Origin: Escherichia coli | GTDB taxonomy: Bacteria > Pseudomonadota > Gammaproteobacteria > Enterobacterales > Enterobacteriaceae | DNA length: 64,000 nucleotides | Assembly (NCBI RefSeq): GCF_030013595.1 | Contig: NZ_CP122768.1 | Strand: one strand, 5' to 3' | Shown here: positions 28,560-41,580 of the stretch, in pieces | How the letters are laid out: every line of letters begins with the position of its first letter | How positions within the stretch are numbered: position 1 is the stretch's first letter | Notes under the pieces: model-generated | What the model was told of the DNA's origin: nothing | Databases searched by the model: none | The model's input: the letters and a program-made list of their open reading frames with translations, nothing else | Program-made: the position numbers and the translations under genes

Positions 28560-30266
28560 TGAATCGATCGCAGTTTGGCATTCGAATCGATCATGATTTG
28601 GCGGTGTTTTTCAAGGTAGTTGTCGCTTTTTGTAATAAAATTACGTTATGCAGCCTCTTTTTCTGGATTCAGGTAGACTTCTGATATGTAGTTCCAGTTA
28701 CGTAGATACTTGCCCCAACGTTCAGGATGTTGCTCGCGAGCTAGCTGGTATACCGCTTTTCAGGCTGCCAGTATTTTCATGTCATTACCTTGATGACGCT
28801 CGGCTGGCGTGACGTATTTGATCCCGCTGTGCTTATGTTCAAAGTTGTACCAGTTTACAAAACTGGTTTACCCATACTCTGGCATCATCAATAGTGCGAA
28901 AACCGTTCTCAGGCCACCAGGGACAATATTTGAGAGTCCGGAACAAAGATTCTGAGTAAGGATTATCATTACTGACTCTTGGCCGGGAATAAGAACTTAG
29001 CACACCAAGCGCATACATTTTCGCCAACAACGTGTCACTGTGCATGGGACCACCGTTATCAGAATGGAGTACCAGATTGTTGGATGAACATTTTTCATTC
29101 CATACTGCACGCTGGAGTAGTTCTGCTGCATGTTTTCCAGATTCGCTGGCAAATACCTCAGCAGCAATAATTTTGCGACTGTAAATATCGACGATCATAT
29201 AGAGGTAAAAATGCTGGCCTCTGACCCAGGACGGCAAATAGCTGATGTCCCAACTCCAGACTTGATTCGGTGCAACGGCCCTGAGTACATCAGGCCAGTT
29301 TATACTGGCATTCACGGGATCGTTTCTTCAACTGCTTGGCTGATTTCAGTACACGATAAAAACTTGATTCAGAAGCAATATAAATACCTCTGTCTGCCAG
29401 AGTTGGTACGATCACATTTGGAGGCAAGGATGCAAACTCTGGAGAGTTGCACAACTCCAGTATTCGCAATCTTTCCGCTTCTGACAGCTTATTTCGGGGA
29501 GAGCTGTTTACAGTATCGGATCTTCGGTCCGTGGTGATGATGTTGCCATTAGTCCAGCGCTGAAGTGTCCGAATAGAAATACCGATACACCTACAAGCCT
29601 GACCTTTCCGGGCGCCGTTGGCGACGGCCTCACGGACAAGAGAAATAATTTTATGCCGCTCCAGGAGAGGGGGCAGTCTTCCTCGCTGTTGTCCCAGAGG
29701 GCATTGAACTTTTCCCTTAATATAAGCAGGGCCGCAGCTTCCGCCAGAGCTTTATCTTTGCGCTTAAGCTCTTTCTCCAGTTCTCGTAACTTATTTTTTG
29801 CGTCACGCAATGCCCTGTCTGTTCGAATATTTTCCGTCAATTTTTTTCATGCGCCTGAATTGAGATAGCCCGCCATTCTTTAACCTGTTCAACAAACAAT
29901 CCCATGCGTCGGCAATAATCGGCAAGCTCCATTTCTGACAGTGTCAACGACGGATGAAAAGTGATCCACTATTGCACCGTTCGTGACAGACAGCGTAGCC
30001 GTCTCAAGAACAACTGAGAATCGACGCTCCGGTGTCCAGTCTTCAACATCAACGGAGGTAATCTTTTCATTTTCAGGTAAAAGTCCTTGCTCCACTAACT
30101 CACATCTCCATTTTGATACAACTGAGGCACTGATCTTCAGCTTCCGGGCTATCTGACGGTGTGACCAACAGTATGGTGGCAAAAGCCATATCAGTCCTTT
30201 TTCTTTGAGCTCATTTGGTATTGGTTGTCCTGGCATTGTTATCTCCTTAAAAAATTGAGGCGACAA
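28560..30266 (-). mobile_element. IS3-family insertion sequence remnant (frameshifted orfA, degenerate orfB)
   Basis: HTH fragment 29889..30266, leucine-zipper orfA part 29508..29840 (RELEKELKRKDKALAEAAALL), orfB fragment 28839..29315 with integrase-core residues; multiple frame breaks. Confidence 0.65.
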
Positions 30267-30305: not shown

Positions 30306-31021
30306 ATGAAAATACGCAGTATCAACCACACAGAGGATTATGTAATGACCAAAAATCATTCATTTTTAGAACAACAGATAGCTACATTTGGTGCAGCACT
30401 AAATGGGGGAAATCAACCGCAATCTGAGTACATAGAAGCCTTCTCAAAATCATTTAAAGGACTAGAAACACAAATTAATATTTGGGAAACCTTTATTGTC
30501 AATAGCACAAATGTTAATCAAGACGACGCAATGCTTTTTCCTTAACCATATCAGAGCAATATCTACACTACACCCATAAATCAACCGAAATAGAACAGCT
30601 CCGCTACTTCTACATAGCACAAAAAATTGCAGACTTGTTCTGGCTGAACAACGTTGCACATAGAGGTAAAAACTCTGAAGGCTACCCAGGTCATTTTGGT
30701 TGTCGTGTAAGGCAAAGAAACAAAAAACTCGAAATTTTCTGGGTTTACAACGAGTTTAAACCTAAAAAGAATTCTGACAAATACCAGGTGATCAGCCATT
30801 ACCTCCCCCGTGAGGGCAATTATCGCTATTCACAAAGCACCTTTACCCGAGCACAAGATTGGGAAAAATCGGTGATTACTGCTGTTGAAGATGCTTTCTC
30901 AATAATCCGCAGAGCCAACTCAAATCTAATGCGGGTTAGACAACTGTGCCGTTGGAATGACACCAATCTATTCAAAATGACAGGCGATATCGACGATTTT
31001 AAGATGGATAATCCTTTATAG
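30306..31021 (+). pseudogene. Hypothetical gene in two frames (30306..30545 and 30635..31021); possibly disrupted
   Basis: Two adjacent same-strand track ORFs in different frames; no family recognised. Confidence 0.3.
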
Positions 31022-31078: not shown

Positions 31079-32128
31079 CTATTTATCTTTTTTTAGTATG
31101 GCCTTGAGGGCTGCGATATTGGCCCGTGCGCCTTCGGCTTCTTTTAAACGACGGCGCTGCTGGGCAAAGCGGTCAAACTCCAATTTCGCTTTGTCATCAG
31201 CGTCTTTCTTGGAGATTTTTCCTGCACCGTTTAATACATCTCTATCGTTAAAACTCAAGAACTGGTCAAGCTTATCGGCCCAGTCCTGTAAAAATACCTG
31301 CTTGCGACGCAGTGCTTGGTCTTCAGCAAAGTCGAGCCACATATTGACGATGCGATTAAGCTCTTTGATTTCGTCTTCACGCAAATAGTTCTTGGCAACA
31401 GTAACGTCTGTCTTGCGCACTTCATCGCCTTTATAGCTGGTTAAGCCCATATCCGGCTTACTGGCATCCACACGGCTGGCGATAAGCTCAGCAGCCGTCA
31501 TATGCGTACAAGCATAATGCAGCTTATTCTGAATGGTTTGGAAGAAGCGGTTGGTCTCTTGGTTAGATGGCTCGTAATCAGCAGCCATGGTAAAGATTTC
31601 TTTGACTCGCAGATAAACGCGACGCTCACTAGCTCGGATATCACGAATGCGTTCCAGCATTTCATCAAAGTAATCTGGCACAGCAGAATGGCCAATGGGC
31701 GGATTTTTCAGGCGCTCGTCATCCATGACGAATCCTTTGATTAGGTATTCTTGCAACATTCTGGTTGCCCATTGGCGGAACTGGGTGCCACGTGTTGAGC
31801 GAACTCGGTATCCTACTGCAAGAATAACCGGAAGACTGTAGTGACGAATGCTTCGCTTTACTTCTCTGCCACCTTCCAGTTGAACTTGTAAGTAATCCTT
31901 ACAAGTTGAAATTTGCTCAAGCTCTTCTTCAGAATAGACAGCTTTTACGTGTTGGGTGATTGCTTGAGAGCTAACTTGATAAAGCTCTGCCATTGCAGCC
32001 TGAGAAAGCCACAAGGTGTCAGACTCAAAACGACACTCAACGCGGGTTTGACCATCAGCACTGGTGAAAAGAACAAACTCACCTTGAGGAGCTTGTGGGA
32101 TGTTATCGGCCATTGAATCAACCTTCAT
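31079..32128 (-). CDS. rhuM: RhuM-family protein (349 aa)
   Basis: Characteristic RhuM N-terminus (FVLFTSADGQTRVECRFESDTLWLSQAAMAELYQVS); directly downstream of the hsd operon. Confidence 0.85.
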   Translation of the reverse strand: MKVDSMADNIPQAPQGEFVLFTSADGQTRVECRFESDTLWLSQAAMAELYQVSSQAITQHVKAVYSEEELEQISTCKDYLQVQLEGGREVKRSIRHYSLPVILAVGYRVRSTRGTQFRQWATRMLQEYLIKGFVMDDERLKNPPIGHSAVPDYFDEMLERIRDIRASERRVYLRVKEIFTMAADYEPSNQETNRFFQTIQNKLHYACTHMTAAELIASRVDASKPDMGLTSYKGDEVRKTDVTVAKNYLREDEIKELNRIVNMWLDFAEDQALRRKQVFLQDWADKLDQFLSFNDRDVLNGAGKISKKDADDKAKLEFDRFAQQRRRLKEAEGARANIAALKAILKKDK

Positions 32129-32148
32129 ATGTTACTGATAATGGGCTA

Positions 32149-32991
32149 TTATTTATCCATAGCGGTTACAGAGTTAGCGAGCCTTTTTTCTTTGCCAAAC
32201 GGGGTCGTATAGAAGCGTTGTTCAATGCCATAAAGCAGTAACTTCAACTCATCGTCATTAGATATTTCAAACTTCTGATTTTCTTTATCGAATTTCAGCT
32301 TCTGTTCACCGCAGTAACCGTCGATATAATCAAGCATGTTAGCTTTATCGTCAGCAGACATCGCATCAAGTGTTGCCATAGCAAGGCCAATACGTTTTCT
32401 ATTAGGTTTTGAGACGCTATCTACGTTGTAGTCATTACCCAACTCTATAAACTGTGCATCTAAAAACTGCTCAACTTCTTCTTTTGTTGCTTCCTTGTAC
32501 AACTCATCGATACCTTTAAAAATGCTCGAGATCGTTGCCAGATTTTTGAATATCAAGGTATCGGCCACTTTGAAGTACACTGCATCAGGTAAGGCGTTTA
32601 TTACTAAACGTGTTTGGCTCTTCTCAATTTCTGCGGCTTCACCAAAAACAAGCGTTTTGCGTTTTACGAATAGGCTTGGAGTGATTTTTTGAAAGTAAAA
32701 ATCATTACCTTGAATTGCAAATAAGTAGGCGATCTTGGCGAAGTTATCTTTGGTTAAGTCATCGTAGTCTTTTGAATCATAGTCTTTTTTTAGCAGTTCA
32801 ATACAAAACTCTTTTTGACTAAAGTCTTCAATTTTAAACCATGAGTCTTCGTCAAGGTTATGGTCTGGATTGTATGGAATACAGGCATTTAAGTCGATTG
32901 TGACGGTATCAAAAAGAGATTGATCAGAAACCAATTTGAAAATGCGTTTTTTTGCTCTAGTTTTTATATGTGCCAGTACATGGTCCATCAT
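32149..32991 (-). CDS. Soluble 280-aa protein translationally coupled to the upstream membrane protein (KwaB-like position; defence candidate)
   Basis: ORF track; start ATG overlaps the stop of the membrane gene (TAATG); no family recognised by eye. Confidence 0.5.
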   Translation of the reverse strand: MMDHVLAHIKTRAKKRIFKLVSDQSLFDTVTIDLNACIPYNPDHNLDEDSWFKIEDFSQKEFCIELLKKDYDSKDYDDLTKDNFAKIAYLFAIQGNDFYFQKITPSLFVKRKTLVFGEAAEIEKSQTRLVINALPDAVYFKVADTLIFKNLATISSIFKGIDELYKEATKEEVEQFLDAQFIELGNDYNVDSVSKPNRKRIGLAMATLDAMSADDKANMLDYIDGYCGEQKLKFDKENQKFEISNDDELKLLLYGIEQRFYTTPFGKEKRLANSVTAMDK

Positions 32992-33545
32992 TATCCTCGC
33001 TCGATAAATGTGTAATTATTGATTCGATAAGCCAATGATATTTCGATGTCATCTGGCTTCTTGTAGCGCTCTCGGCTAATAAGGAAAATGGCCGTTCCGT
33101 TTTTGGTTGTAATGTTATAAAACTCATAACCAAACAGTAAAAACAATGGGTTAAAGTAGAGTGCTTGCGATAAGAGAGTAAAAACAAACAAAACGCCATA
33201 AACAAACCACAATGTCTCCCAGTTACCAATGCTCAACGCCACGAAAAAGTAACCCAAATAACTTGGTAGGAAGCTGTTATTGGCATGCTCAATACTCGCT
33301 ACTTCACCCGCCTTAAAATCGTCTTTACCCAAATACTTACTCAGCCAAATACTCAATCCAGTCGATAAAACAGGGATAAGAAAATAGAGTAAATATGATA
33401 CTGCGTTCGGAAGTGCTGCTATCCAATCGAAGCAAGCGAAACCACCAAAGAAATATCCGAGTGAGTACCCTTTTTGTACCGCAAAGATAATCACTAGTAG
33501 TGATGTTGCATTGAACGTAAGTAAAACCCGAAACGCAGTATTCAT
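32991..33545 (-). CDS. Small 4-TM membrane protein translationally coupled to hsdR (KwaA-like architecture; defence candidate)
   Basis: About four hydrophobic helices (aa 7-25, 29-46, 49-70, 93-125); start ATG overlaps the hsdR stop. Confidence 0.55.
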   Translation of the reverse strand: MNTAFRVLLTFNATSLLVIIFAVQKGYSLGYFFGGFACFDWIAALPNAVSYLLYFLIPVLSTGLSIWLSKYLGKDDFKAGEVASIEHANNSFLPSYLGYFFVALSIGNWETLWFVYGVLFVFTLLSQALYFNPLFLLFGYEFYNITTKNGTAIFLISRERYKKPDDIEISLAYRINNYTFIERG

Positions 33546-36500
33546 TATTTCACCGCCGCCTGTTCTGCACCTTGCTTCATCATGTCAAAAATCAACTCAA
33601 CATAACTTGCCATAACTTGTGGGTCTTTGAGTAGCGTTCGGGCTATATCACCTTCTTTCAGCAGAGCCTGCACAACGGCTTGCTTCACCGCTTGCGGCAA
33701 GTCGCCTTTGAGGGCAATCGACTTGTCGTGCTTTTCTATCTGCTCAACCACAATTGGATTTTGGGTGACACGCGTAATAGTACCGTTGGCAAAGTTTCGG
33801 CGACCGGGTTCGTCGCCGACATCGCCAAACAGTTCGTTTAGGCGGCGAATGATATCGGCAAGAAATGCCTGTTCACGATCCGCAGGGTCGTTATAGTTGG
33901 GGCGGATAGGTTCAAGTACCTGATTAAACGCTTCTGGAAGCGGCTCTTTGTCGTATTTGATTTTGAATTTTTCTAGTACCAGTGCACTGAGATCGATGTT
34001 TTCTGGTGTTACCCCTTTCAATCGACGTGATAGCAAATGAGCAAACGCGGCAAAGTTTTCCAGTTCAGGATCACCAAACTCAATCAATTGCGCCATATAG
34101 CTATAGTGCTTCACAAATCGAGCTAAATCTGACTTAAAACGCATTAGTGCTTCGCGCTGCTTGGTGAAATCACTGCGCTGAGATTCTGCGTAGTTCGCCG
34201 CTTTTTCATCACCCGCAAGGTGCGCTTTGTTGTATTGCTGATCCCAATGGTTTGCAGCATCAACCAGCTCTTTGAGCTTAACGTTGAACACATCGGTAGG
34301 GCGTTGTGTGGCAGCTAGCAGTTTCTTGTGCGCGTGTGACTTTTTGTCAGGTGATTGGCCGAGAATCGATTTACCACGCGCTTGCTTAAACAACTCTAAA
34401 TCTTGATGGTTGTATATGTTCTGTTCATCCAAAATATCTTTGATGTCATAGATGACGTTCACATCTTGCACTTCATTAAGCTGCGCGCCTTTGTCGTACT
34501 TTTTGAACGCATTGAGAATGGTTTGTGGATCGTTAACAAAATCAATCACGAAGGTTGTGTCTTTGCCTGGATAGGTGCGGTTTAGGCGAGACAGCGTTTG
34601 CACCGCTTCTACATCGGATATTTTCTTATCCAAATACATGGCAACCAGTTTTGGTTGATTAAAGCCCGTTTGGAACTTGTTGGCGACTAACATGACGCGA
34701 TATTCGGTATTCTCAAACTCATGGCGCAGGTCAGCCCCGTGCGTGTCTGGGTTTAAGTTGTACTCGGTGTACTCTTTATCGAAATCAATTTCTAGCGGGT
34801 CTTGGCTGTCTTCATCACCCAAATCTTTGCCGGGGACTTTGCCCGAGAAGGCAACCAAGGCTTGGATACCTTCAATACCATGCTTTTTAATGTATTTATC
34901 AAAAGCAAGCTTGTATTTCACCGCCTGTGGCCTGCCCGATGTGACCACCATGGCTTTGGCTTCACCTTCCAGTAGGTGAGCGATATTGGCCTTGAAGTGC
35001 TTAATAATAAATTCGACTTTTTGGCTGACCGTGGTTGGGTGCAGTGACATCCAGCGCGCCAACGCGCGGCGAGCTTGTTTGCTGTCTACGCGCTTCTCAT
35101 CCAGATTGTTCTCACCAATTTTGTAGGCTGTATCGTAGTGGGTGTAATTCTCCAGCACATCAAGAATAAAACCCTCATCAATGGCCTGACGTTGGGTGTA
35201 GAGGTGGAACGATTCAGGAAGATTGTCATCTGACACTGGTTGGTTAGGGTCTTTCGGGCGGCCAAACAACATCTTGGTGCTGTGCTTGGGTGTTGCCGTA
35301 AAAGCAAAGTGCGAAACGTTCTTGGGCATGGCGCGCGCTTCTTGCACCTTAGTAAGAATGTCCTCAATGCTCATTTGCTCCAACTCTTGAGGGCTAAGGT
35401 TTAGAGTAAGCGCTGCGCGTAACCCTTTGGCTGTAGAGCCTGTTTGCGAGGTGTGTGCTTCATCGATGATCACCGCAAAGTTACTTTGTGCCAAAGATTG
35501 ATTGGTCAGAATCGCTTCTAACGCATATGGGAAGGTTTGAATCGTCACTACAATGATCGGCGTGCCAGTCAATAGCGCTTCAGTCAGCTGTTTTGATTTC
35601 GACTCGCTGCTCTTTTCGCGATCAATCGCCTTAATCACCCCATATTGATGATCCAGCTGTTGCACCGCATCTTGCAACTGCGAATCCAGCACGGTGCGGT
35701 CGGTCACAATGATCACTGATTTAAAGACCGCTTTACCATCGGTGCTGCGTAAACGAATCAAATCATGGGCCGTCCAGGCTATGGTAGAGGTTTTTCCCGA
35801 ACCGGCGCTGTGCTCACAAAGATACTGCATGCCTGCGCCGTTCTGGCGGGCATCATCAATCATCTTGTTGACTGCGGCTAACTGATGATAACGCGGAAAA
35901 ATCTGTGTTTCCTTACGCTCAACCTTGCCATTGCTATCGGCAACCACTTTGGTTTCGACATACACAAAGCTGTAGAAAATGCGTAGCCAATTATCTTTTT
36001 GGGCAATTTCTTGCCAAAAATAGCTGACCGGATACTCTCCATCTTCACCCGGCAAGTTGATGTGTACAGGCAAATCAGAGGTAGAACCATCATGGCCTTT
36101 ATTGAAGGGCAGAAAATAGGTATTTTCTCCCGCCAGTTTGGTCGCCATGGCGATTTCTGTATCAGACATGGCAAAATGTACCACTGCACCGCGTTTAAAG
36201 GTTAACAGCGGCTCTTTACGCTTGGTTTTTGGGTCAACGGGCAGACGATCCTCTTTGTACTGCGCAATCGCCGATTCTAGCGACTGGGTAAAATCGGTTT
36301 TTAGCTCGGCGGTGGCAACGGGTAGACCGTTGATAAAGAACACCAAGTCAATTTCCCACTCGCGAGTCGGGCAATATTTCAGTTGGCGCACCACGCGCAA
36401 AATGTTGTGCTCATAACGGGCTATACGCTCTTCATTGCGCGCATCTTCGGGTTTGCGTTGGCCCATGGCAATCGTGCCGCAACCTGCAATGGTAAAGCCT

Positions 36501-36781
36501 TTACGCAGCACATTAATGGTGCCACCTGTTTTACTGCCAGCTTTGTGGGAAGAGAGGGCTTTTTCCAAACGCTCCAACAGCACCTGCTCGGCATTCACAC
36601 CATGCAGTTTATTCAGTTTGTGCCAGGCATCTGGCTGGGTGGCCTTTACCCAATCCATGACATCTTGCGGGTAAAGGGCGCGTTGCTGGTCATAGTGGCA
36701 GGAATGGCCTTCTTTCCAGCCATTGTTCACCAACTGCTCGGTAATATATTGTTCAAAATGCACTTCATGATGTGCAGCCAT
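33545..36781 (-). CDS. hsdR: Type I restriction enzyme R subunit HsdR (1078 aa)
   Basis: SF2 helicase motifs (GSGKT Walker A, DEAH-like region); length and operon context. Confidence 0.95.
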   Translation of the reverse strand: MAAHHEVHFEQYITEQLVNNGWKEGHSCHYDQQRALYPQDVMDWVKATQPDAWHKLNKLHGVNAEQVLLERLEKALSSHKAGSKTGGTINVLRKGFTIAGCGTIAMGQRKPEDARNEERIARYEHNILRVVRQLKYCPTREWEIDLVFFINGLPVATAELKTDFTQSLESAIAQYKEDRLPVDPKTKRKEPLLTFKRGAVVHFAMSDTEIAMATKLAGENTYFLPFNKGHDGSTSDLPVHINLPGEDGEYPVSYFWQEIAQKDNWLRIFYSFVYVETKVVADSNGKVERKETQIFPRYHQLAAVNKMIDDARQNGAGMQYLCEHSAGSGKTSTIAWTAHDLIRLRSTDGKAVFKSVIIVTDRTVLDSQLQDAVQQLDHQYGVIKAIDREKSSESKSKQLTEALLTGTPIIVVTIQTFPYALEAILTNQSLAQSNFAVIIDEAHTSQTGSTAKGLRAALTLNLSPQELEQMSIEDILTKVQEARAMPKNVSHFAFTATPKHSTKMLFGRPKDPNQPVSDDNLPESFHLYTQRQAIDEGFILDVLENYTHYDTAYKIGENNLDEKRVDSKQARRALARWMSLHPTTVSQKVEFIIKHFKANIAHLLEGEAKAMVVTSGRPQAVKYKLAFDKYIKKHGIEGIQALVAFSGKVPGKDLGDEDSQDPLEIDFDKEYTEYNLNPDTHGADLRHEFENTEYRVMLVANKFQTGFNQPKLVAMYLDKKISDVEAVQTLSRLNRTYPGKDTTFVIDFVNDPQTILNAFKKYDKGAQLNEVQDVNVIYDIKDILDEQNIYNHQDLELFKQARGKSILGQSPDKKSHAHKKLLAATQRPTDVFNVKLKELVDAANHWDQQYNKAHLAGDEKAANYAESQRSDFTKQREALMRFKSDLARFVKHYSYMAQLIEFGDPELENFAAFAHLLSRRLKGVTPENIDLSALVLEKFKIKYDKEPLPEAFNQVLEPIRPNYNDPADREQAFLADIIRRLNELFGDVGDEPGRRNFANGTITRVTQNPIVVEQIEKHDKSIALKGDLPQAVKQAVVQALLKEGDIARTLLKDPQVMASYVELIFDMMKQGAEQAAVK

Positions 36782-38067
36782 TACACCGCCTCCCTGACGT
36801 CTATTTTTCCTGTGACAGCCGCGTTGATCAGCGATGTGCGGTGTTCTTTTAGAAGATCAATCGATTTATCAGTCTCTTGAATCAGTAAATCAATGTTTAT
36901 CGTTGCTGCACTCAAGTAATTCGTTATTGTCTTTTGCTCATCAATTGGTGGGATAGCAATACTTGTATTAGCTAGTGAAGGAATGCTCAGGTTGTAGTTA
37001 CCTACCGATGTTCTTGACTGAAATGTTAATGCTTGACGAACAGATAGTGAGTTCATCGCTTCCACTAAGAAGCTAGTATCCACTCCTTGCTTTGGTGTTA
37101 ACTTTATTAGGTACGACGCAAATAAATACTGCCCATTTGAATCAAAAAGCGCGCTTTGGCCGACCAGATTAGGGTTACCGTTAGTTCTGATGACTAAAAT
37201 GTCGCCTCTTGATAAAAGATAAGTTAAAGCATCAACATCACTGATATTTGCATATTTGAGATCTTCAAAATCAACATTGGTACTCTTGATGTTTGGTATC
37301 CTGAGAACAGGATAGCCAACATCAGACTGGTTACAGTCTTGAGAGGTTCCATACATAAAGTTGGAGCAAATATGCTTTATCTTTTTGACTTCCCAATGCT
37401 TCGGCACTTGCCCAATCCACTCGATGCCAGAGTCCTGCATCTCCACATTGGGATAGAGCCCCTTTGTGACCACATGGCTGATCAGTGCTTGGCGTTTTTC
37501 TTTGAGCAGCTTAATAAAGGTCTGCTTTTCCTCGATCAGACTGTCGATGCGCTGGGTTTCGCGATCAAGGAATGTGCTAACCTGCTTCTGTAATGAAATA
37601 TCAATCAGTGGAACAGGTATTTCTAAAAGATCACCAGCTGTTAGGTTCTGACGAACTCCTCCACCCAGTTTGTTATAAATATTGGTTAGGTATAGAGCAA
37701 AAAAGTACCAGTAATAGAACCTTGGGTAGATGCTATTTGAACTCGCTGAAACACGGATGTATGCAGGGCTCATTATTCCTCGTTCATGCACAATCCCCAC
37801 TCGGCTAGTCTTTATATTTTCAAGATCTATGAGCTTAAAAACTAAGTCATCTTTTTCAAAAATCTGATAAACAGAGTAATCAGAAGATTGAAGTCCTTGT
37901 AAATCGTCTAACGAGCGGTTTATGACACCTTTCATTGTTAGTGCAAGACGATTAGATTCTTTCATTCCTTGATTGATTTCTTTGCTACTCGTAAATAAAC
38001 GTTTAGCTGGTACTGAGTTCCATTTCGAGTCAGATACGAAAGCATCTACTATGTTGCCAGCATTCAT
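36781..38067 (-). CDS. hsdS: Type I restriction-modification specificity subunit HsdS (428 aa)
   Basis: Two-TRD architecture with conserved central and C-terminal repeats; coupled between hsdM and hsdR. Confidence 0.9.
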   Translation of the reverse strand: MNAGNIVDAFVSDSKWNSVPAKRLFTSSKEINQGMKESNRLALTMKGVINRSLDDLQGLQSSDYSVYQIFEKDDLVFKLIDLENIKTSRVGIVHERGIMSPAYIRVSASSNSIYPRFYYWYFFALYLTNIYNKLGGGVRQNLTAGDLLEIPVPLIDISLQKQVSTFLDRETQRIDSLIEEKQTFIKLLKEKRQALISHVVTKGLYPNVEMQDSGIEWIGQVPKHWEVKKIKHICSNFMYGTSQDCNQSDVGYPVLRIPNIKSTNVDFEDLKYANISDVDALTYLLSRGDILVIRTNGNPNLVGQSALFDSNGQYLFASYLIKLTPKQGVDTSFLVEAMNSLSVRQALTFQSRTSVGNYNLSIPSLANTSIAIPPIDEQKTITNYLSAATINIDLLIQETDKSIDLLKEHRTSLINAAVTGKIDVREAV

Positions 38068-40046
38068 TACGCCACCTCATTCAGCAGAGCCTGAATGCGC
38101 GCTTCACATGCTTTTAGCTCACGATCAATCACACTCAACTCGCGTGGTGGCACGTATTGGTAGAAATAGCGGTTAAAGTTAATTTCATAACCGACAATGC
38201 CCACTTCGCCGTCTTTTTCATCACGCACTGAGTGATCAATAAAGGCATCCGGTACATGTGGCAGCACCTCTTGTGCGAAGTAATCTTCAACGTCGCGGTC
38301 AAAAGGAATGCTTTCGGTGTCTTTGAGTTTAGGGTCGGCGATCACTTGGCCTTTTTCATCCAGTGCAGGCTCAAATTGCGGATCAATTTTTACAAAGTGC
38401 GCAGTTAAGGCCGTAGCCAGTGCTTTTGAGCACTTACCAAAGTCACCCTTATTGTTATTCTTCTTAACCGCCAAACGTGCCCATTCATAAGGCTGAAGGC
38501 CAAGGTTATCGGTGAGGTATTGTACCCATGCCGCTTGTTGCTCTGGTTTGAGTTTTTTAAACGTATCTTGCTGCACAAATGCAGCAATGCCCGCAGCGGT
38601 AATATCTAGTTTGGCACGCAGTGGACGCTGAATGGTGACTTTACGGTAGGCAAAATCAGTAGTCTGGAAGATCTTACAGTTGTCACTGGCTTCAAAGCCA
38701 TCGTACGCACGGACAATATCGTCAATCTGTTCATCACTCAGGTACTTGCGCTTATCGCCTTGCGATTTACGCATGGGAGTCCAAATATCTGCCAAGTTAA
38801 TCAGTTGCACCTGATTCTTGCGTCTTGGCTCTTTATGGTTAGTCAAAATCCAGATGTAGGTGCCAATGCCGGTGTTGAAGAACATATCGGTTGGCAGGGC
38901 AACAATCGCTTCGACTAAGTCTTGTTCTAGCAGCCAACGGCGGATTTCTGATGGGCCTGAGCCTGCATCGCCATTAAACAGTGGCGAGCCAGAAAGGACT
39001 ATACCCACTCGGCCACCACCATTTTCCGGCGTTTCCATTTTTGATACCAAGTGCAGTAAAAACAGCATTGAACCATCAGAAATACTCGGCAGGCCTGGCC
39101 CAAAGCGTCCGGCGTATTTGAGCTGTTTGTGCTCACGTTCTACTTCTTTCTTGGCTTTTTCCCACTTAATGCCAAATGGCGGGTTGGCAAGGCCGTAGTG
39201 AAACTTGTCGGCACGTAACTGATCGTCTGATAAGGTGTTGCCTTGCTTGATGTTATTGGCATCAAAACCGCGGATCATCATATTGGTCAGCGCCATGGCA
39301 TGGGTCGCGGGGTCGAGCTCTTGACCAAAAGGCACGACTTTAGCGCTGCTGCCCATTTCTTCAATTTGGCTAATGGCATCGGAAAGGAAACCGCCCGTGC
39401 CACAGGTTGGGTCATAGATGGTGCGGATCACACCCTTTTCACTAAAGATATCTTCATCCGCCGCCAGCACCAGTTTGGTGGCAAGACGCACGGCATCACG
39501 CGGGGTCATAAATTCCCCGGCCTTTTCATTAACCGAACTGGCGAACTTTAGAATCAGCTCTTCATAAGCATCTGATAATACGCGGTCAGACACTACATCA
39601 GGATGCAAGTCGAGGTTGGCAAAATGGTTTACCATGCGATACAGCAACTTGGCTTTTTCCAGATCTTCTATGGTTTGACCAAATTTAAACTCATCAAAGA
39701 TGGTACGAACGTTTTTGCTGAACTGGCTGATGTAGTGTTCTAGGTTGTCGCCGGTGTCTGACGCGCCTAAGGTTTCTAGGCTATATTCACTGGTGTTGTA
39801 AAAGGCGAATCCCGCAATTTCTGGCAACACTAAACCAAGGTCTATGCCGGATTGTTTTTCGGCCAGATAGAACTTACGAACTTCCTCACGGGTGGGTTCT
39901 AACACGCATTCAATACGACGCAGTAGCAAAAATGGCAGGATAATCCGCGCAAAATCGGTGTGTTTGAAATCACCCCATAAATCATCTGCCATACGCCAAA
40001 TAGCACTGGAGAGTTTGGCGCTTTGTTCTTTGTCTTGTAAGTTCAT
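38067..40046 (-). CDS. hsdM: Type I restriction-modification N6-adenine DNA methyltransferase HsdM (659 aa, long C-terminal extension)
   Basis: NPPFG catalytic motif (LANPPFGIKW), HsdM N-terminal domain; first gene of the coupled operon. Confidence 0.95.
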   Translation of the reverse strand: MNLQDKEQSAKLSSAIWRMADDLWGDFKHTDFARIILPFLLLRRIECVLEPTREEVRKFYLAEKQSGIDLGLVLPEIAGFAFYNTSEYSLETLGASDTGDNLEHYISQFSKNVRTIFDEFKFGQTIEDLEKAKLLYRMVNHFANLDLHPDVVSDRVLSDAYEELILKFASSVNEKAGEFMTPRDAVRLATKLVLAADEDIFSEKGVIRTIYDPTCGTGGFLSDAISQIEEMGSSAKVVPFGQELDPATHAMALTNMMIRGFDANNIKQGNTLSDDQLRADKFHYGLANPPFGIKWEKAKKEVEREHKQLKYAGRFGPGLPSISDGSMLFLLHLVSKMETPENGGGRVGIVLSGSPLFNGDAGSGPSEIRRWLLEQDLVEAIVALPTDMFFNTGIGTYIWILTNHKEPRRKNQVQLINLADIWTPMRKSQGDKRKYLSDEQIDDIVRAYDGFEASDNCKIFQTTDFAYRKVTIQRPLRAKLDITAAGIAAFVQQDTFKKLKPEQQAAWVQYLTDNLGLQPYEWARLAVKKNNNKGDFGKCSKALATALTAHFVKIDPQFEPALDEKGQVIADPKLKDTESIPFDRDVEDYFAQEVLPHVPDAFIDHSVRDEKDGEVGIVGYEINFNRYFYQYVPPRELSVIDRELKACEARIQALLNEVA

Positions 40047-40112
40047 TGATACTACCTAAATGAAGTTAAATCGTTAAAAAATCAGTGTATTGTTTGGTTA
40101 TTATTTTGCGTT

Positions 40113-40619
40113 CTAGCTAAAGATGGCTTGCCAACGGCAAAATGCAGAACGATGTCTGTCGGTCCATTGGGTGCAAATAACATAGGTTTTTTCATCTCGC
40201 TGGGCCACTTTAGTGGTGGAGTAGCGGTTTCGCTCTTTGGCATCTTTGGCTGCACTGCGAATGTCTTCTGGCCGTGATGATTTAGCCAGTTTGAGCACGG
40301 GGAATGACAACCCAAAAATGTTGCGACAATAGGTTAGCTGCGTGAGGTTTTCTATTTCACTCAGTGGTAGAGCATGTTCAACCAAGTCTTGGATAGCTTC
40401 GGTTATCTCTGCATTGCTGATATTGTGTTGCGTTTGTGCAACTTCCCGTGTCTCTACTTCATTTTCAAGAGCAACAGAAAACGGAAAACCTTTGGCTTGA
40501 ACGGATTTAGCTAAAAAGACGTTAATAGCCTGCTCAATAGGTAAGCCCAACTCAGCAAAGATACTCGTGGCTTTTTCAAGCAGTTGAGGGTCTATATTGG
40601 TTGCCTTCATATGACTCAC
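40113..40619 (-). CDS. RelB/DinJ-like antitoxin-fold domain fused to an unknown C-terminal domain (168 aa)
   Basis: N-terminus LLEKATSIFAELGLPIEQAINVFLAKSV resembles DinJ/RelB; no adjacent toxin ORF; sits just upstream of hsdM. Confidence 0.5.
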   Translation of the reverse strand: MSHMKATNIDPQLLEKATSIFAELGLPIEQAINVFLAKSVQAKGFPFSVALENEVETREVAQTQHNISNAEITEAIQDLVEHALPLSEIENLTQLTYCRNIFGLSFPVLKLAKSSRPEDIRSAAKDAKERNRYSTTKVAQRDEKTYVICTQWTDRHRSAFCRWQAIFS

Positions 40620-40882
40620 AAAACCTACAAATTGTAATTTTTGTATCCTATAGGCTTTGCATTTTCACGGCTAGCAATAAAGTCAAAAAATGAGAAATAA
40701 TTGATCTTAAAAAACTTAAAACAGGCTAACAAATCAGCAGTTACACTTGTCATGCCCTGCTAGTGAGAGGATCTTATCACTTTCGATATTGATGCAATCA
40801 GGTGCCGCGATAGAGGAAGCTTGGTCAGGTAATGGTGCCAACTTACTGATTTAGTGTATGATGGTGATTTTAAGGTGCTTGC

Positions 40883-41158
40883 GTGGCTTCTGTTTCTATC
40901 AGCTGTCCCTCCTGTTCAGCTACTGACGGGGTGGTGCGTAACGGCAAAAGCACCGCCGGACATCAGCGCTATCTCTGCTCTCACTGCCGTAAAACATGGC
41001 AACTGCAGTTCACTTACACCGCTTCTCAACCCGGTACGCACCAGAAAATCATTGATATGGCCATGAATGGCGTTGGATGCCGGGCAACCGCCCGCATTAT
41101 GGGCGTTGGCCTCAACACGATTTTCCGCCATTTAAAAAACTCAGGCCGCAGTCGGTAA
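40883..41158 (+). CDS. insA: IS1 InsA
   Basis: [40 protein letters not shown]. Confidence 0.95.
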
Positions 41159-41580
41159 CCTCGCGCATACAGCCGGGCAGTGACGTCATCGTCTGCGCGG
41201 AAATGGACGAACAGTGGGGATACGTCGGGGCTAAATCGCGCCAGCGCTGGCTGTTTTACGCGTATGACAGGCTCCGGAAGACGGTTGTTGCGCACGTATT
41301 CGGTGAACGCACTATGGCGACGCTGGGGCGTCTTATGAGCCTGCTGTCACCCTTTGACGTGGTGATATGGATGACGGATGGCTGGCCGCTGTATGAATCA
41401 CGCCTGAAGGGAAAGCTGCACGTTATCAGCAAGCGTTACACTCAGCGAATTGAGCGGCATAACCTGAATCTGAGGCAGCACCTGGCACGGCTGGGACGGA
41501 AGTCGCTGTCGTTCTCAAAATCGGTGGAGCTGCATGACAAAGTCATCGGGCATTATCTGAACATAAAACACTATCAATAA
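41077..41580 (+). CDS. insB: IS1 InsB (expressed as InsAB' by frameshift)
   Basis: ORF track; IS1 transposase sequence. Confidence 0.85.

What the first reader, a model, noticed from the sequence alone, without database searches (positions are those of the whole stretch)
32149..33545. Two-gene membrane/soluble module translationally coupled to hsdR: Kiwa-like or undescribed R-M-guarding defence candidate
A 184-aa protein with about four TM helices and a 280-aa soluble protein sit directly after hsdR. Every junction in hsdM-hsdS-hsdR-membrane-soluble has overlapping stop/start codons (TAATG at 38067, 36781, 33545, 32991), so all five genes form one translationally coupled operon. A small 4-TM protein followed by a soluble partner is the Kiwa (KwaA/KwaB) architecture, but I cannot confirm DUF4868 by eye. 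Coupling to the restriction subunit suggests a guard that fires when phage anti-restriction factors disable the type I enzyme, analogous to PrrC within hsd loci.
Basis: partly seen in the sequence, partly recalled or inferred. Interest (0 to 1): 0.85.

Follow-up and report, generated by a model that had tools for sequence, protein, structure and literature searches.

The report
Divergent Kiwa defence pair in hsd operon
The two genes after hsdR are a distant branch of the known Kiwa anti-phage system (membrane sensor KwaA plus DNA-binding KwaB), carried as a small cassette that is habitually spliced into type I restriction-modification operons, so this is a known kind of system in a recurrent but little-discussed setting.

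Summary
On the minus strand, hsdM, hsdS, hsdR, a 184-aa membrane protein and a 280-aa soluble protein are joined by four TAATG stop/start overlaps. The pair is Kiwa, but a remote branch. PADLOC KwaA and KwaB models match both proteins over nearly full length (9e-16, 7e-14). AlphaFold models (pLDDT 91 and 89) find only solved KwaA and KwaB in the PDB. Pfam KwaB and the NCBIfam KwaA cut-off are not met, and RefSeq still calls the 280-aa protein hypothetical. The pair is a discrete 1.4-kb cassette. In 80 loci from different species, kwaA directly precedes kwaB wherever sequence exists. In 49 of 74 informative loci the pair lies in a type I R-M operon, in three gene orders and with about 11 Hsd lineages. 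Loci without intact type I genes still carry an hsdS 3' fossil overlapping the kwaA start. Three of five canonical Kiwa lineages sampled are also embedded between hsdS and hsdR. The pair also occurs without type I genes, so an obligate PrrC-like guard is unlikely. Most likely it is an autonomous Kiwa co-expressed with restriction; functional cooperation is untested.

The parts
32991..33545 (-). kwaA-like gene (184 aa): inner-membrane protein with 4 TM helices plus a six-stranded cytoplasmic beta domain
   Evidence: PADLOC KwaA PDLC00216 matches at 9.3e-16 over residues 2-182. The AF2 model has pLDDT 90.7, with helices 2-25, 47-71, 90-105 and 109-126, two strands in the intracellular loop and four C-terminal strands. 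Foldseek against the PDB finds only KwaA chains (9mrx_A E 2e-4, TM 0.62). NCBIfam KwaA scores 25 bits against a cut-off of 100. Recent RefSeq records name it 'KwaA family protein'.
32149..32991 (-). kwaB-like gene (280 aa; probable true start at 32988): soluble partner, presumed DNA-binding effector
33545..36781 (-). hsdR, type I restriction subunit; its stop overlaps the kwaA start (TAATG)
   Evidence: TIGR00348 matches at 1e-48 and PADLOC REase_I at 8.6e-30. The junction sequence is shown.
36781..38067 (-). hsdS, specificity subunit
   Evidence: PADLOC Specificity_I matches at 4e-97. The target-recognition regions differ from the Vibrio copies while the flanks are about 89% identical.
38067..40046 (-). 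hsdM, methyltransferase subunit
   Evidence: PADLOC MTase_I PDLC03029 matches at 1.9e-243 and TIGR00497 at 5e-29.
40113..40619 (-). RelB/DinJ-like N-terminal domain protein (168 aa), first gene of the conserved unit; possible regulator
   Evidence: TIGR02384 matches at 1.7e-10 over residues 7-78. It is 88% identical and in the same position in Vibrio loci L012 and L013.
31079..32128 (-). rhuM family gene (PADLOC candidate PDC-S05), 20 nt downstream of kwaB, same strand
   Evidence: PDLC04852 matches at 8e-167. It follows kwaB in L012, L013, L015 and L067 as well.
31080..40658 (-). Extent of the unit shared with Vibrio genomes at about 87-92% nucleotide identity; in this window it is flanked by a mobI(A/C) fragment (30548-31021) and IS1 (40883-41580)
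   Evidence: blastn of the window against L012 and L013; RefSeq annotation of the same island in E. coli SMS-3-5.

Best explanation
The two genes encode a remote branch of the Kiwa anti-phage and anti-conjugation system. They travel as a 1.4-kb kwaA-kwaB cassette that has been recombined onto the 3' end of a type I R-M operon, giving the unit relB-like, hsdM, hsdS, hsdR, kwaA, kwaB, rhuM.

Shown here:
- The genes are intact.
- The stop and start codons overlap at all four junctions.
- Both proteins match KwaA and KwaB profiles and folds.
- The pair is always found together.
- The cassette is linked to type I R-M operons in about two thirds of the species sampled.

Inferred by homology to the studied E. 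coli Kiwa (PMC11785009):
- KwaA forms a tetramer in the inner membrane that senses the membrane disturbance made by phage attachment, DNA injection or conjugation.
- KwaB dimers docked on KwaA's cytoplasmic beta-barrel then bind the entering DNA without sequence specificity.
- This binding stalls replication and late transcription.

Inferred from the operon structure: the pair is made from the hsd transcript by translational coupling. One promoter would then deliver two layers against incoming DNA. The type I enzyme cuts unmethylated DNA. Kiwa acts regardless of methylation and so covers phages that are modified or that carry anti-restriction proteins. The pair is most likely autonomous, meaning it does not need Hsd proteins to work.
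For: Identity of the two proteins:
- PADLOC KwaA matches at 9e-16 and KwaB at 7e-14, both near full length.
- The KwaA model reproduces the published architecture of four TM helices plus a six-stranded barrel built from the intracellular loop and the C-terminus. It hits only KwaA chains in the PDB.
- Close homologues of the 184-aa protein carry a precomputed Pfam PF28043 KwaA hit.

Pairing:
- A KwaA-like gene lies directly upstream of KwaB-like in all 79 loci that have upstream sequence.

Cassette behaviour:
- Nucleotide homology to other genomes stops at the two gene ends, window 32157-33553.
- kwaA and kwaB have 39% and 37% GC, against 48% for hsdR and hsdM.

Autonomy:
- The pair occurs without type I genes next to BrxL, a BbrUII-like enzyme, DarTG, PLD-helicase and DUF2357 genes.

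Linkage to type I R-M:
- 49 of 74 informative loci have same-strand type I genes directly flanking the pair. Most show 1-nt or 4-nt overlaps.
- The linked Hsd genes fall into 11 lineages at 40% identity.

Function of Kiwa:
- Five Kiwa operons from different clusters all gave anti-phage activity (PMC11785009).
Against: - Sequence similarity to the structurally studied Kiwa is very weak.
  - Profile-profile comparison of the KwaB-like family with canonical KwaB is not significant (E 0.09).
  - For KwaA only a 44-column motif aligns (E 1.6e-4).
  - Pfam KwaB misses the protein, and the NCBIfam KwaA score is far below its cut-off.
- The 280-aa protein is net acidic (39 K+R against 49 D+E), and DNA-contact residues could not be mapped. 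DNA binding is therefore assumed, not shown.
- No member of this branch is known to me to have been tested.
- No promoter or terminator signal above chance was found, so the transcript structure is inferred only from gene spacing.
Confidence: 0.7

Rival explanations
1. Functional cooperation. Kiwa and the type I enzyme work together on the same incoming DNA, so protection is more than additive. One possibility is that the membrane-anchored KwaAB complex captures or tethers entering DNA, slows replication, and so gives the slow, translocation-dependent type I enzyme time or topological constraint to cut. Another is that the two systems split phage DNA-mimic inhibitors between them, as reported for Kiwa and RecBCD with Gam.
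For: - The linkage is frequent and has been rebuilt many times: 49 of 74 loci, three gene orders (hsdRMS-kwaAB, hsdMSR-kwaAB, hsdMS-kwaAB-hsdR) and 11 Hsd lineages.
- KwaB proteins 82-83% identical to the window's sit beside HsdR proteins only about 21% identical to the window's.
- An hsdS 3' fossil still overlaps the kwaA start in loci that have lost type I genes (L018, L002, L010).
- Three of five canonical Kiwa lineages sampled are also embedded between hsdS and hsdR.
- Inhibitor partitioning between Kiwa and RecBCD is documented (PMC11785009).
Against: - Adjacency alone does not show interaction. The hsdS-hsdR gap and the 3' end of hsd operons are general landing sites for unrelated defence genes: DarTG2 (PMC12255303), PrrC and many others (10.1101/2024.01.29.577857), and here rhuM, RT-like, McrB-like and PtuA-like genes.
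- 23 of 74 loci lack type I genes.
- Protein roadblocks did not make EcoKI cut one-site linear DNA in vitro (PMC4231737).
- The section on DNA mimics reports inhibition of Kiwa by Gam and describes no effect of Ocr.
Confidence: 0.2
2. PrrC-like guard. KwaAB is held inactive by a working type I complex and fires, perhaps as abortive infection, when a phage anti-restriction factor such as Ocr, ArdA or Stp disables that complex.
For: - The position in or after an hsd operon matches that of prrC in EcoprrI (my knowledge; the PrrC embedding is also noted in 10.1101/2024.01.29.577857).
- The tight translational coupling would set the stoichiometry with Hsd proteins.
Against: - The pair is found without any type I genes in 23 of 74 loci.
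- It attaches to hsdS as often as to hsdR.
- It has been swapped between Hsd lineages about 21% identical to each other while staying more than 80% identical itself. This is hard to reconcile with a specific protein-protein guard interface.
- Studied Kiwa is triggered by membrane disturbance and works when cloned alone (PMC11785009).
- Neither protein has any similarity to PrrC.
Confidence: 0.05
3. Decayed or non-defence passenger. The two ORFs are hitch-hiking remnants with no current function in E. coli, or they serve a housekeeping membrane role.
For: - RefSeq names are uninformative ('hypothetical protein', 'ATP F0F1 synthase synthase').
- The island around the operon is littered with IS elements.
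Against: - Both ORFs are intact and at least 99.8% identical in all 76 E. coli genomes that carry them.
- The family is large and well conserved. The KwaA-like alignment has 52% mean column identity with invariant motifs.
- The neighbours in the loci examined are predominantly defence genes.
- No housekeeping family matches either protein.
Confidence: 0.05

Closest known systems
Kiwa (KwaA/KwaB) of E. coli O55:H7 RM12579, ECOR8, ECOR12 and ECOR49; structures 9mrg, 9mrr, 9mrx, 9mtn, 9nyu, 9o0i (PMC11785009)
   Same: Both are two-gene operons with kwaA before kwaB. KwaA is about 185-200 aa, with four TM helices and a six-stranded cytoplasmic barrel. KwaB is a soluble two-domain protein. The predicted folds match these structures and nothing else. 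Both are found on mobile elements and in defence islands.
   Different: KwaB-like is 280 aa rather than about 315-327 aa. It fails Pfam PF16162 and shows no significant profile-profile similarity to the canonical cluster. KwaA-like shares only one short motif with canonical KwaA. In this locus the pair has no promoter region of its own, because it overlaps hsdR. No experimental data were found for this branch.
DarTG2 embedded in a type I R-M system (RRDM island of EPEC E2348/69, regulated by RptR; PMC12255303)
   Same: A small two-gene defence system lies inside a type I R-M operon on the same strand, with a small regulator-like gene as the first ORF. DarTG also appears next to this Kiwa cassette (L002-L011, L033, L053).
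   Different: The embedded proteins are different. DarTG2 sits between hsdS and hsdR, whereas here the pair follows hsdR. The first ORF here is a 168-aa RelB/DinJ-like protein, not the 79-aa RptR, and homology between the two was not tested.
PrrC anticodon nuclease within the EcoprrI hsd locus
   Same: An extra defence gene is carried inside a type I R-M locus and is co-inherited with it.
   Different: PrrC is a single soluble ATPase-nuclease that is kept latent by EcoprrI and activated by the T4 Stp peptide (my knowledge). The pair here is a membrane protein plus a DNA-binding-type partner, it also occurs without type I genes, and it shows no PrrC similarity.
'Guilt-by-embedding' survey of genes inside Hma, BREX, DISARM and type I R-M systems (Payne et al., bioRxiv 10.1101/2024.01.29.577857)
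   Same: That survey gives the general rule that known and new defence systems are embedded, in the same orientation, within type I R-M operons. rhuM/PDC-S05 belongs to PADLOC's PDC (phage defence candidate) series, the candidate class this survey defines.
   Different: Kiwa is not named in that text. The survey counts strictly embedded genes, whereas in the window the pair is appended after hsdR.

Membership tests
Kiwa | KwaA: small inner-membrane protein with four TM helices, and an intracellular loop plus C-terminus forming a six-stranded beta-barrel (PMC11785009) | tested here: met
   The AF2 model (pLDDT 90.7) has helices 2-25, 47-71, 90-105 and 109-126, strands 73-76 and 82-87 in the loop, and four C-terminal strands. 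The only Foldseek PDB hits are KwaA chains, with TM up to 0.62.
Kiwa | KwaA sequence-family membership by defence-system HMMs | tested here: met
   Nine PADLOC KwaA models match. The best is PDLC00216 at 9.3e-16, residues 2-182 against model positions 3-170 of 173. Homologues 83-87% identical carry precomputed Pfam PF28043 KwaA hits.
Kiwa | KwaA at the NCBIfam equivalog cut-off (NF041622, 100 bits) | tested here: not met
   The score is 25.4 bits at E 1.1e-5. Profile-profile comparison with canonical KwaA aligns only 44 columns at E 1.6e-4.
Kiwa | KwaB carries the DUF4868 / Pfam PF16162 domain | tested here: not met
   Pfam gives no hit for the window protein. Only 2 of 45 family members reach E<=1e-3. 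hhalign against 30 canonical KwaB sequences gives E 0.09. A family profile finds no KwaB chain in the PDB by sequence.
Kiwa | KwaB recognised by defence-system HMMs over its full length | tested here: met
   PADLOC KwaB PDLC00222 matches at 7.1e-14, residues 33-276 against model positions 42-289 of 292. PDLC00234 matches at 1.2e-8 and PDLC00225 at 2.1e-6.
Kiwa | KwaB fold as in the solved structures | tested here: met
Kiwa | kwaA immediately upstream of kwaB, same strand, always together | tested here: met
   This holds in all 79 surveyed loci that have upstream sequence, with gaps of -4 to +6 nt in most. It also holds in distant members at 30-33% identity.
Kiwa | KwaA tetramer and KwaB dimers assemble into a membrane supercomplex | not testable with these tools
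   No multimer prediction was available. This needs AF3-multimer modelling or co-purification.
Kiwa | KwaB binds DNA; the system protects against phages and conjugation | not testable with these tools
   This needs experiments. Contact residues could not be mapped because no reliable sequence alignment to the solved KwaB exists.
Type I restriction-modification system | HsdM, HsdS and HsdR all present and intact in one operon | tested here: met
   NCBIfam TIGR00497, PRK09737 and TIGR00348 match. PADLOC MTase_I matches at 1.9e-243, Specificity_I at 4e-97 and REase_I at 8.6e-30. The ORFs are intact.
PrrC-type guard of a type I enzyme | ABC-ATPase plus anticodon-nuclease protein homologous to PrrC | tested here: not met
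   Neither protein gives a PrrC hit in PADLOC or NCBIfam.
PrrC-type guard of a type I enzyme | Obligate co-occurrence with type I R-M genes | tested here: not met
   23 of 74 informative loci have no intact type I gene within the flanks examined.
PrrC-type guard of a type I enzyme | Latency imposed by the R-M complex and activation by an anti-restriction factor | not testable with these tools
   This needs genetics with Ocr, ArdA or Stp.

The most novel reading that the evidence does not exclude
Kiwa and type I restriction form a functional partnership rather than a mere co-location. The kwaAB cassette has been selected again and again to be co-translated with Hsd subunits because the membrane-bound KwaAB complex, which seizes DNA as it enters the cell, makes type I restriction more effective. 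It could do this by tethering the DNA, delaying replication, or soaking up DNA-mimic anti-restriction proteins. The Hsd enzyme would in turn destroy the DNA that Kiwa only immobilises. On this reading the hsdS fossil that travels with the cassette marks the hsdS-kwaA junction as the ancestral state of this branch.
Probability: 0.2. Interest if true: 0.7.

Novelty: new member of a known kind. Interest (0 to 1): 0.4.

Why it matters
The practical result is an annotation fix. A protein family spread across Vibrio, Shewanella, Aeromonas, Proteus, Alteromonas, Bacteroidota, Firmicutes and 76 complete E. coli genomes is currently labelled 'hypothetical' or 'ATP F0F1 synthase synthase', and it is KwaB of a remote Kiwa branch.

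The broader point is that Kiwa, in this branch and in part of the canonical branch, sits inside type I R-M operons far more often than the occasional embedding that Payne et al. (bioRxiv 10.1101/2024.01.29.577857) report for many other known defence systems. I found no paper that discusses this. It gives a concrete, cheap experiment on defence-system synergy, using an isogenic set of hsd, kwaAB and both. It also gives a natural set of about 11 independent Hsd-Kiwa combinations in which to ask whether embedding reflects cooperation or only shared regulation and transfer.

Tried and rejected
- Pfam-A scans of both proteins gave nothing above noise.
- Sequence searches of the PDB with the single proteins and with family profiles found no KwaA or KwaB. 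Only fold comparison did.
- hhalign of the KwaB-like family against single canonical KwaB fragments and against a 30-sequence canonical alignment was not significant.
- The operon is absent from the plasmid collection (8 partial hits only), so a current plasmid origin is rejected. In E. coli it is chromosomal in all 76 genomes.
- The promoter and terminator scan found fewer sites than the shuffled controls and no terminator between hsdR, kwaA, kwaB and rhuM. It is therefore uninformative about the transcript.
- The 45-sequence alignment was too diverse for the search for related loci, so an 8-sequence alignment was used instead.
- The Kiwa paper's supplementary table of 9,797 PADLOC Kiwa operons is not held. 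I could not check whether this branch is one of its three clusters, or whether any of the five tested operons belongs to it.
- Literature searches for Kiwa with hsdR, type I R-M or embedding found no paper describing the association.
- I considered the idea that KwaB acts as a roadblock that triggers type I cleavage and downgraded it. A resolvase roadblock did not make EcoKI cut one-site linear DNA (PMC4231737).
- PHROGs gave only an unnamed family for KwaA-like (phrog_7312, 4.6e-12) and nothing for KwaB-like.
Full report
**1. The observation**

On the minus strand the window carries five contiguous ORFs: hsdM (38067-40046), hsdS (36781-38067), hsdR (33545-36781), a 184-aa ORF (32991-33545) and a 280-aa ORF (32149-32991). 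Each of the four junctions reads TAATG, so every stop codon shares its last base with the next ATG. Homologues of the 280-aa protein begin at what is here the second ATG (32988), 2 nt after the kwaA stop. The coupling is just as tight either way.

The Hsd identities are solid. PADLOC gives MTase_I 1.9e-243, Specificity_I 4e-97 and REase_I 8.6e-30, and NCBIfam hsdM, hsdS and hsdR models also match. The 184-aa protein has four long helices, and the 280-aa protein has no membrane-grade hydrophobic segment.

A 168-aa RelB/DinJ-like gene precedes hsdM. A rhuM family gene (PADLOC candidate PDC-S05, 8e-167) follows the 280-aa gene after 20 nt on the same strand.

**2. What the two proteins are**

PADLOC's Kiwa models match both proteins nearly end to end:
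- KwaA PDLC00216 matches at 9.3e-16 (residues 2-182), and eight further KwaA models also match.
- KwaB PDLC00222 matches at 7.1e-14 (residues 33-276 against model positions 42-289 of 292), and two further KwaB models also match.

Other libraries do not reach them:
- Pfam-A finds nothing.
- NCBIfam KwaA scores 25 bits against a cut-off of 100.
- Neither the proteins nor family profiles find any PDB chain by sequence.

I therefore built family alignments and predicted both structures.

The KwaA-like model (pLDDT 90.7) has four TM helices, two strands in the intracellular loop and four C-terminal strands. This is the published KwaA plan of four TM helices plus a six-stranded barrel made from the loop and the C-terminus (PMC11785009). 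Foldseek against the PDB returns six KwaA chains (probability 1.0, TM up to 0.62) and nothing else.

Profile-profile comparison with canonical proteins is weak:
- For KwaB it is not significant (E 0.09).
- For KwaA one motif aligns, YFNPLFLLFGYxFY against FYANPSLALLGFxIY (E 1.6e-4).
- Only 2 of 45 family members reach Pfam KwaB PF16162.

My reading is that these are true Kiwa homologues on a remote branch. Databases reflect this only partly. RefSeq calls both proteins 'hypothetical' in most genomes. The newest records name the 184-aa protein 'KwaA family protein'. Many species carry the meaningless name 'ATP F0F1 synthase synthase' for the 280-aa protein.

**3. Where the locus comes from**

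The window is E. coli chromosome. The 9.2-kb operon is present at 99-100% identity in 76 of 5,426 complete genomes. It is always chromosomal and always in this context. In strain SMS-3-5 it lies in an IS-rich island next to tRNA-Leu.

Two Vibrio genomes (L012, L013) share the whole unit from the RelB-like gene to rhuM, at about 87-92% nucleotide and 88-97% protein identity. Only the hsdS target-recognition regions differ. Homology ends at window 31080 and 40658. In E. coli the unit is bracketed by a mobI(A/C) fragment and IS1, so it arrived by horizontal transfer.

**4. The pair is a cassette, and it recurs**

KwaB-like has 1,334 relatives in the 90% clustered collection and falls into 534 clusters at 50% identity.

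I scanned one genome per species and obtained 80 loci with flanks. I annotated these with iterated HMMs built from the window's own proteins. The results are:
- A KwaA-like gene lies directly upstream of KwaB-like in all 79 loci that have upstream sequence.
- Nucleotide similarity between the window and every locus other than L012, L013 and L015 is confined to window 32157-33553, which is exactly the two genes.
- kwaA and kwaB have 39% and 37% GC, against 48% for hsdR and hsdM.

The pair therefore behaves as a 1.4-kb cassette.

**5. Linkage to type I R-M**

Of 74 informative loci, 49 have type I genes directly flanking the pair on the same strand:

| Arrangement | Loci |
|---|---|
| hsdS immediately upstream (order hsdR-hsdM-hsdS-kwaA-kwaB), all with a gap of 150 nt or less, most with 1-nt or 4-nt stop/start overlaps | 27 |
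| ...of which hsdR also directly downstream (hsdM-hsdS-kwaA-kwaB-hsdR) | 5 |
| hsdR upstream, as in the window | 21 (16 with a gap of 150 nt or less) |
| hsdMSR downstream only | 1 |
| hsd genes nearby on the opposite strand | 2 |
| No intact type I gene in the flank | 23 |

The linked Hsd proteins fall into 11 lineages at 40% identity. The two phylogenies are discordant. KwaB proteins 82-83% identical to the window's sit beside HsdR proteins only about 21% identical to the window's. Conversely, a Dysgonomonas locus has an HsdM that clusters with the window's at the 40% threshold (38% by best local alignment; its HsdR does not cluster), plus rhuM, but a KwaB only 47% identical. The association has therefore been rebuilt many times.

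Loci without intact type I genes still carry, overlapping the kwaA start, a fossil of the conserved hsdS C-terminus:
- L018 carries ...LRDWLLPMLMNGQVTVK*.
- L002 and L010 carry a degraded ...LSDWLFSIVVNELVRVK*.

This shows that those copies descend from an hsdS-kwaA junction.

The remaining contexts are predominantly defence genes: BrxL, a BbrUII-like type II enzyme, PtuA/SMC-like ATPases, Fic, DarTG, a PLD-DEAD-DUF3427 helicase and a DUF2357-PDDEXK protein.

**6. Control with canonical Kiwa**

I sampled five PF16162-positive KwaB lineages related to the canonical copy in SMS-3-5. Three are embedded as hsdM-hsdS-kwaA-kwaB-...-hsdR. Two enterobacterial ones sit in P4-like satellite hotspots. 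Very distant members of the window's family (30-33% identity) were not next to type I genes.

Linkage to type I R-M is therefore a frequent property of Kiwa in general. It is neither universal nor peculiar to this branch.

**7. How it most likely works**

Shown here:
- The genes are intact.
- The stop and start codons overlap.
- Both proteins have the KwaA and KwaB folds.
- The pair is obligately paired.
- It behaves as a cassette.
- It is recurrently placed in operons with type I R-M.

Inferred from the studied E. coli Kiwa (PMC11785009):
- KwaA tetramers in the inner membrane sense the disturbance caused by phage attachment, DNA ejection or conjugation.
- KwaB dimers docked on KwaA bind the entering DNA and stall replication and late transcription.
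- The lambda DNA mimic Gam inhibits KwaB.

Inferred from the operon: one transcript supplies a methylation-dependent cutter and a methylation-independent DNA-arresting layer.

I put about 0.7 on this reading of an autonomous Kiwa co-expressed with restriction.

A true functional partnership (tethering or delay that helps the slow type I enzyme, or partitioning of DNA-mimic inhibitors) fits the repeated re-association, but nothing here shows it. I put it at about 0.2. A simple roadblock version is disfavoured, because a protein roadblock did not induce EcoKI cleavage of one-site linear DNA (PMC4231737).

The pair lives without type I genes in a third of loci. It follows hsdS as often as hsdR. 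It swaps between very different Hsd lineages. It has no PrrC similarity.

**8. Comparison with what is known, and novelty**

The system is a new, remote member of a known kind, Kiwa. The general phenomenon of defence genes embedded in type I R-M operons is established:
- PrrC.
- DarTG2 in the RRDM island (PMC12255303).
- The guilt-by-embedding survey, which notes that many known systems are embedded only a few times and that PrrC is an extreme case (10.1101/2024.01.29.577857).

Neither that text nor the Kiwa paper mentions Kiwa in this role, and three further literature searches found nothing. I could not consult the Kiwa paper's supplementary operon table. The pattern may therefore be present in existing data sets without having been discussed.

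**9. Caveats**

- The 80 loci are the best 80 of 137 found with one peptide pattern, so they are a biased sample.
- 'Type I' labels come from HMMs iterated within the sample.
- Flanks are 8 kb.
- The canonical control has only five lineages.
- No baseline rate for other defence systems was computed.
- Structural similarity for KwaB is moderate.
- DNA binding, complex formation and anti-phage activity of this branch are untested.

Noticed in passing
window 31079-32128 (-): A rhuM family gene (PADLOC candidate PDC-S05, 8e-167) lies 20 nt after kwaB on the same strand. The same gene follows kwaB in L012, L013, L015 and L067, and it sits inside the hsd operon (between hsdM and hsdS) in L065. It may be a third recurrent passenger of these operons.
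   Followed up: partly
window 40113-40619 (-): A 168-aa protein with an N-terminal RelB/DinJ antitoxin-like domain lies 66 nt upstream of hsdM. It is conserved at 88% identity in the same position in two Vibrio genomes, and no partner toxin is present. It could be the operon's regulator, analogous in position to RptR of the RRDM island. Homology to RptR was not tested.
   Followed up: partly
L001 3924-6857 (E. coli SMS-3-5, same island, about 8 kb from the operon): SMS-3-5 carries a second, canonical Kiwa in the same island. Its kwaA is intact, but its kwaB is split by an ISVsa5 insertion. This copy is absent from the window, whose island is about 4 kb shorter in that stretch.
   Followed up: partly
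L018 about 7360-7446; L002 and L010 about 8360-8444: A fossil of the conserved hsdS C-terminus (DWLLPMLMNGQVTVK*), with its stop overlapping the kwaA ATG, persists in loci that have no intact type I genes. It is a molecular scar showing that the cassette was lifted out of an hsdS-kwaA junction.
   Followed up: yes
KwaB-like residues 262-280 (window 32149-32208): The C-terminal tail is the only low-confidence part of the AF2 model (pLDDT below 50). It nevertheless holds some of the family's most conserved residues (E/KRLANSV; A272 nearly invariant across 45 sequences, and R270, N273 and S274 invariant among the eight closest). A disordered but conserved tail suggests a docking peptide for KwaA or another partner.
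   Followed up: no
L016 5450-8653; L025 8147-12982; L078 9325-13998; L041 9002-10642; L087 8839-10692: Genes directly downstream of kwaB in other species are large defence-type proteins: a 1,067-aa protein with a retron/DRT-like reverse-transcriptase region, proteins of 1,557-1,611 aa with a sacsin-like P-loop, a McrB-like GTPase and a PtuA-like ATPase. The 3' end of these operons looks like a stacking site for cassettes.
   Followed up: partly
L100-L104, about 6969-7091 in L100: In canonical Kiwa loci embedded between hsdS and hsdR, a conserved 40-aa ORF sits between kwaB and hsdR, with overlapping junctions on both sides. Its function is unknown.
   Followed up: no
L100-L104, genes at about 3266-5420 in L100: The hsdS of those canonical embedded loci is fused to a nucleotidyltransferase (Polbeta/NTP_transf_2) domain and is preceded by an NTase substrate-binding (PF08780) gene. 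This appears to be a MNT/HEPN-like pair merged into a type I operon.
   Followed up: no
window 30548-31021 (+), 40883-41580 (+), 41687 onward: The operon is bracketed by a mobI(A/C)-like fragment and an IS1 copy. A merR-like gene, probably the start of a mercury-resistance operon, begins right after IS1. IS3-family fragments lie at 28839-29840. Together they indicate a mosaic resistance and defence island.
   Followed up: no
protein clusters P0001-P0120: The NCBI product name 'ATP F0F1 synthase synthase' is attached to this KwaB-like family in many genera, including Vibrio, Shewanella, Aeromonas, Proteus, Alteromonas and E. coli. It is a propagated misannotation with no support from any profile search run here.
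   Followed up: yes
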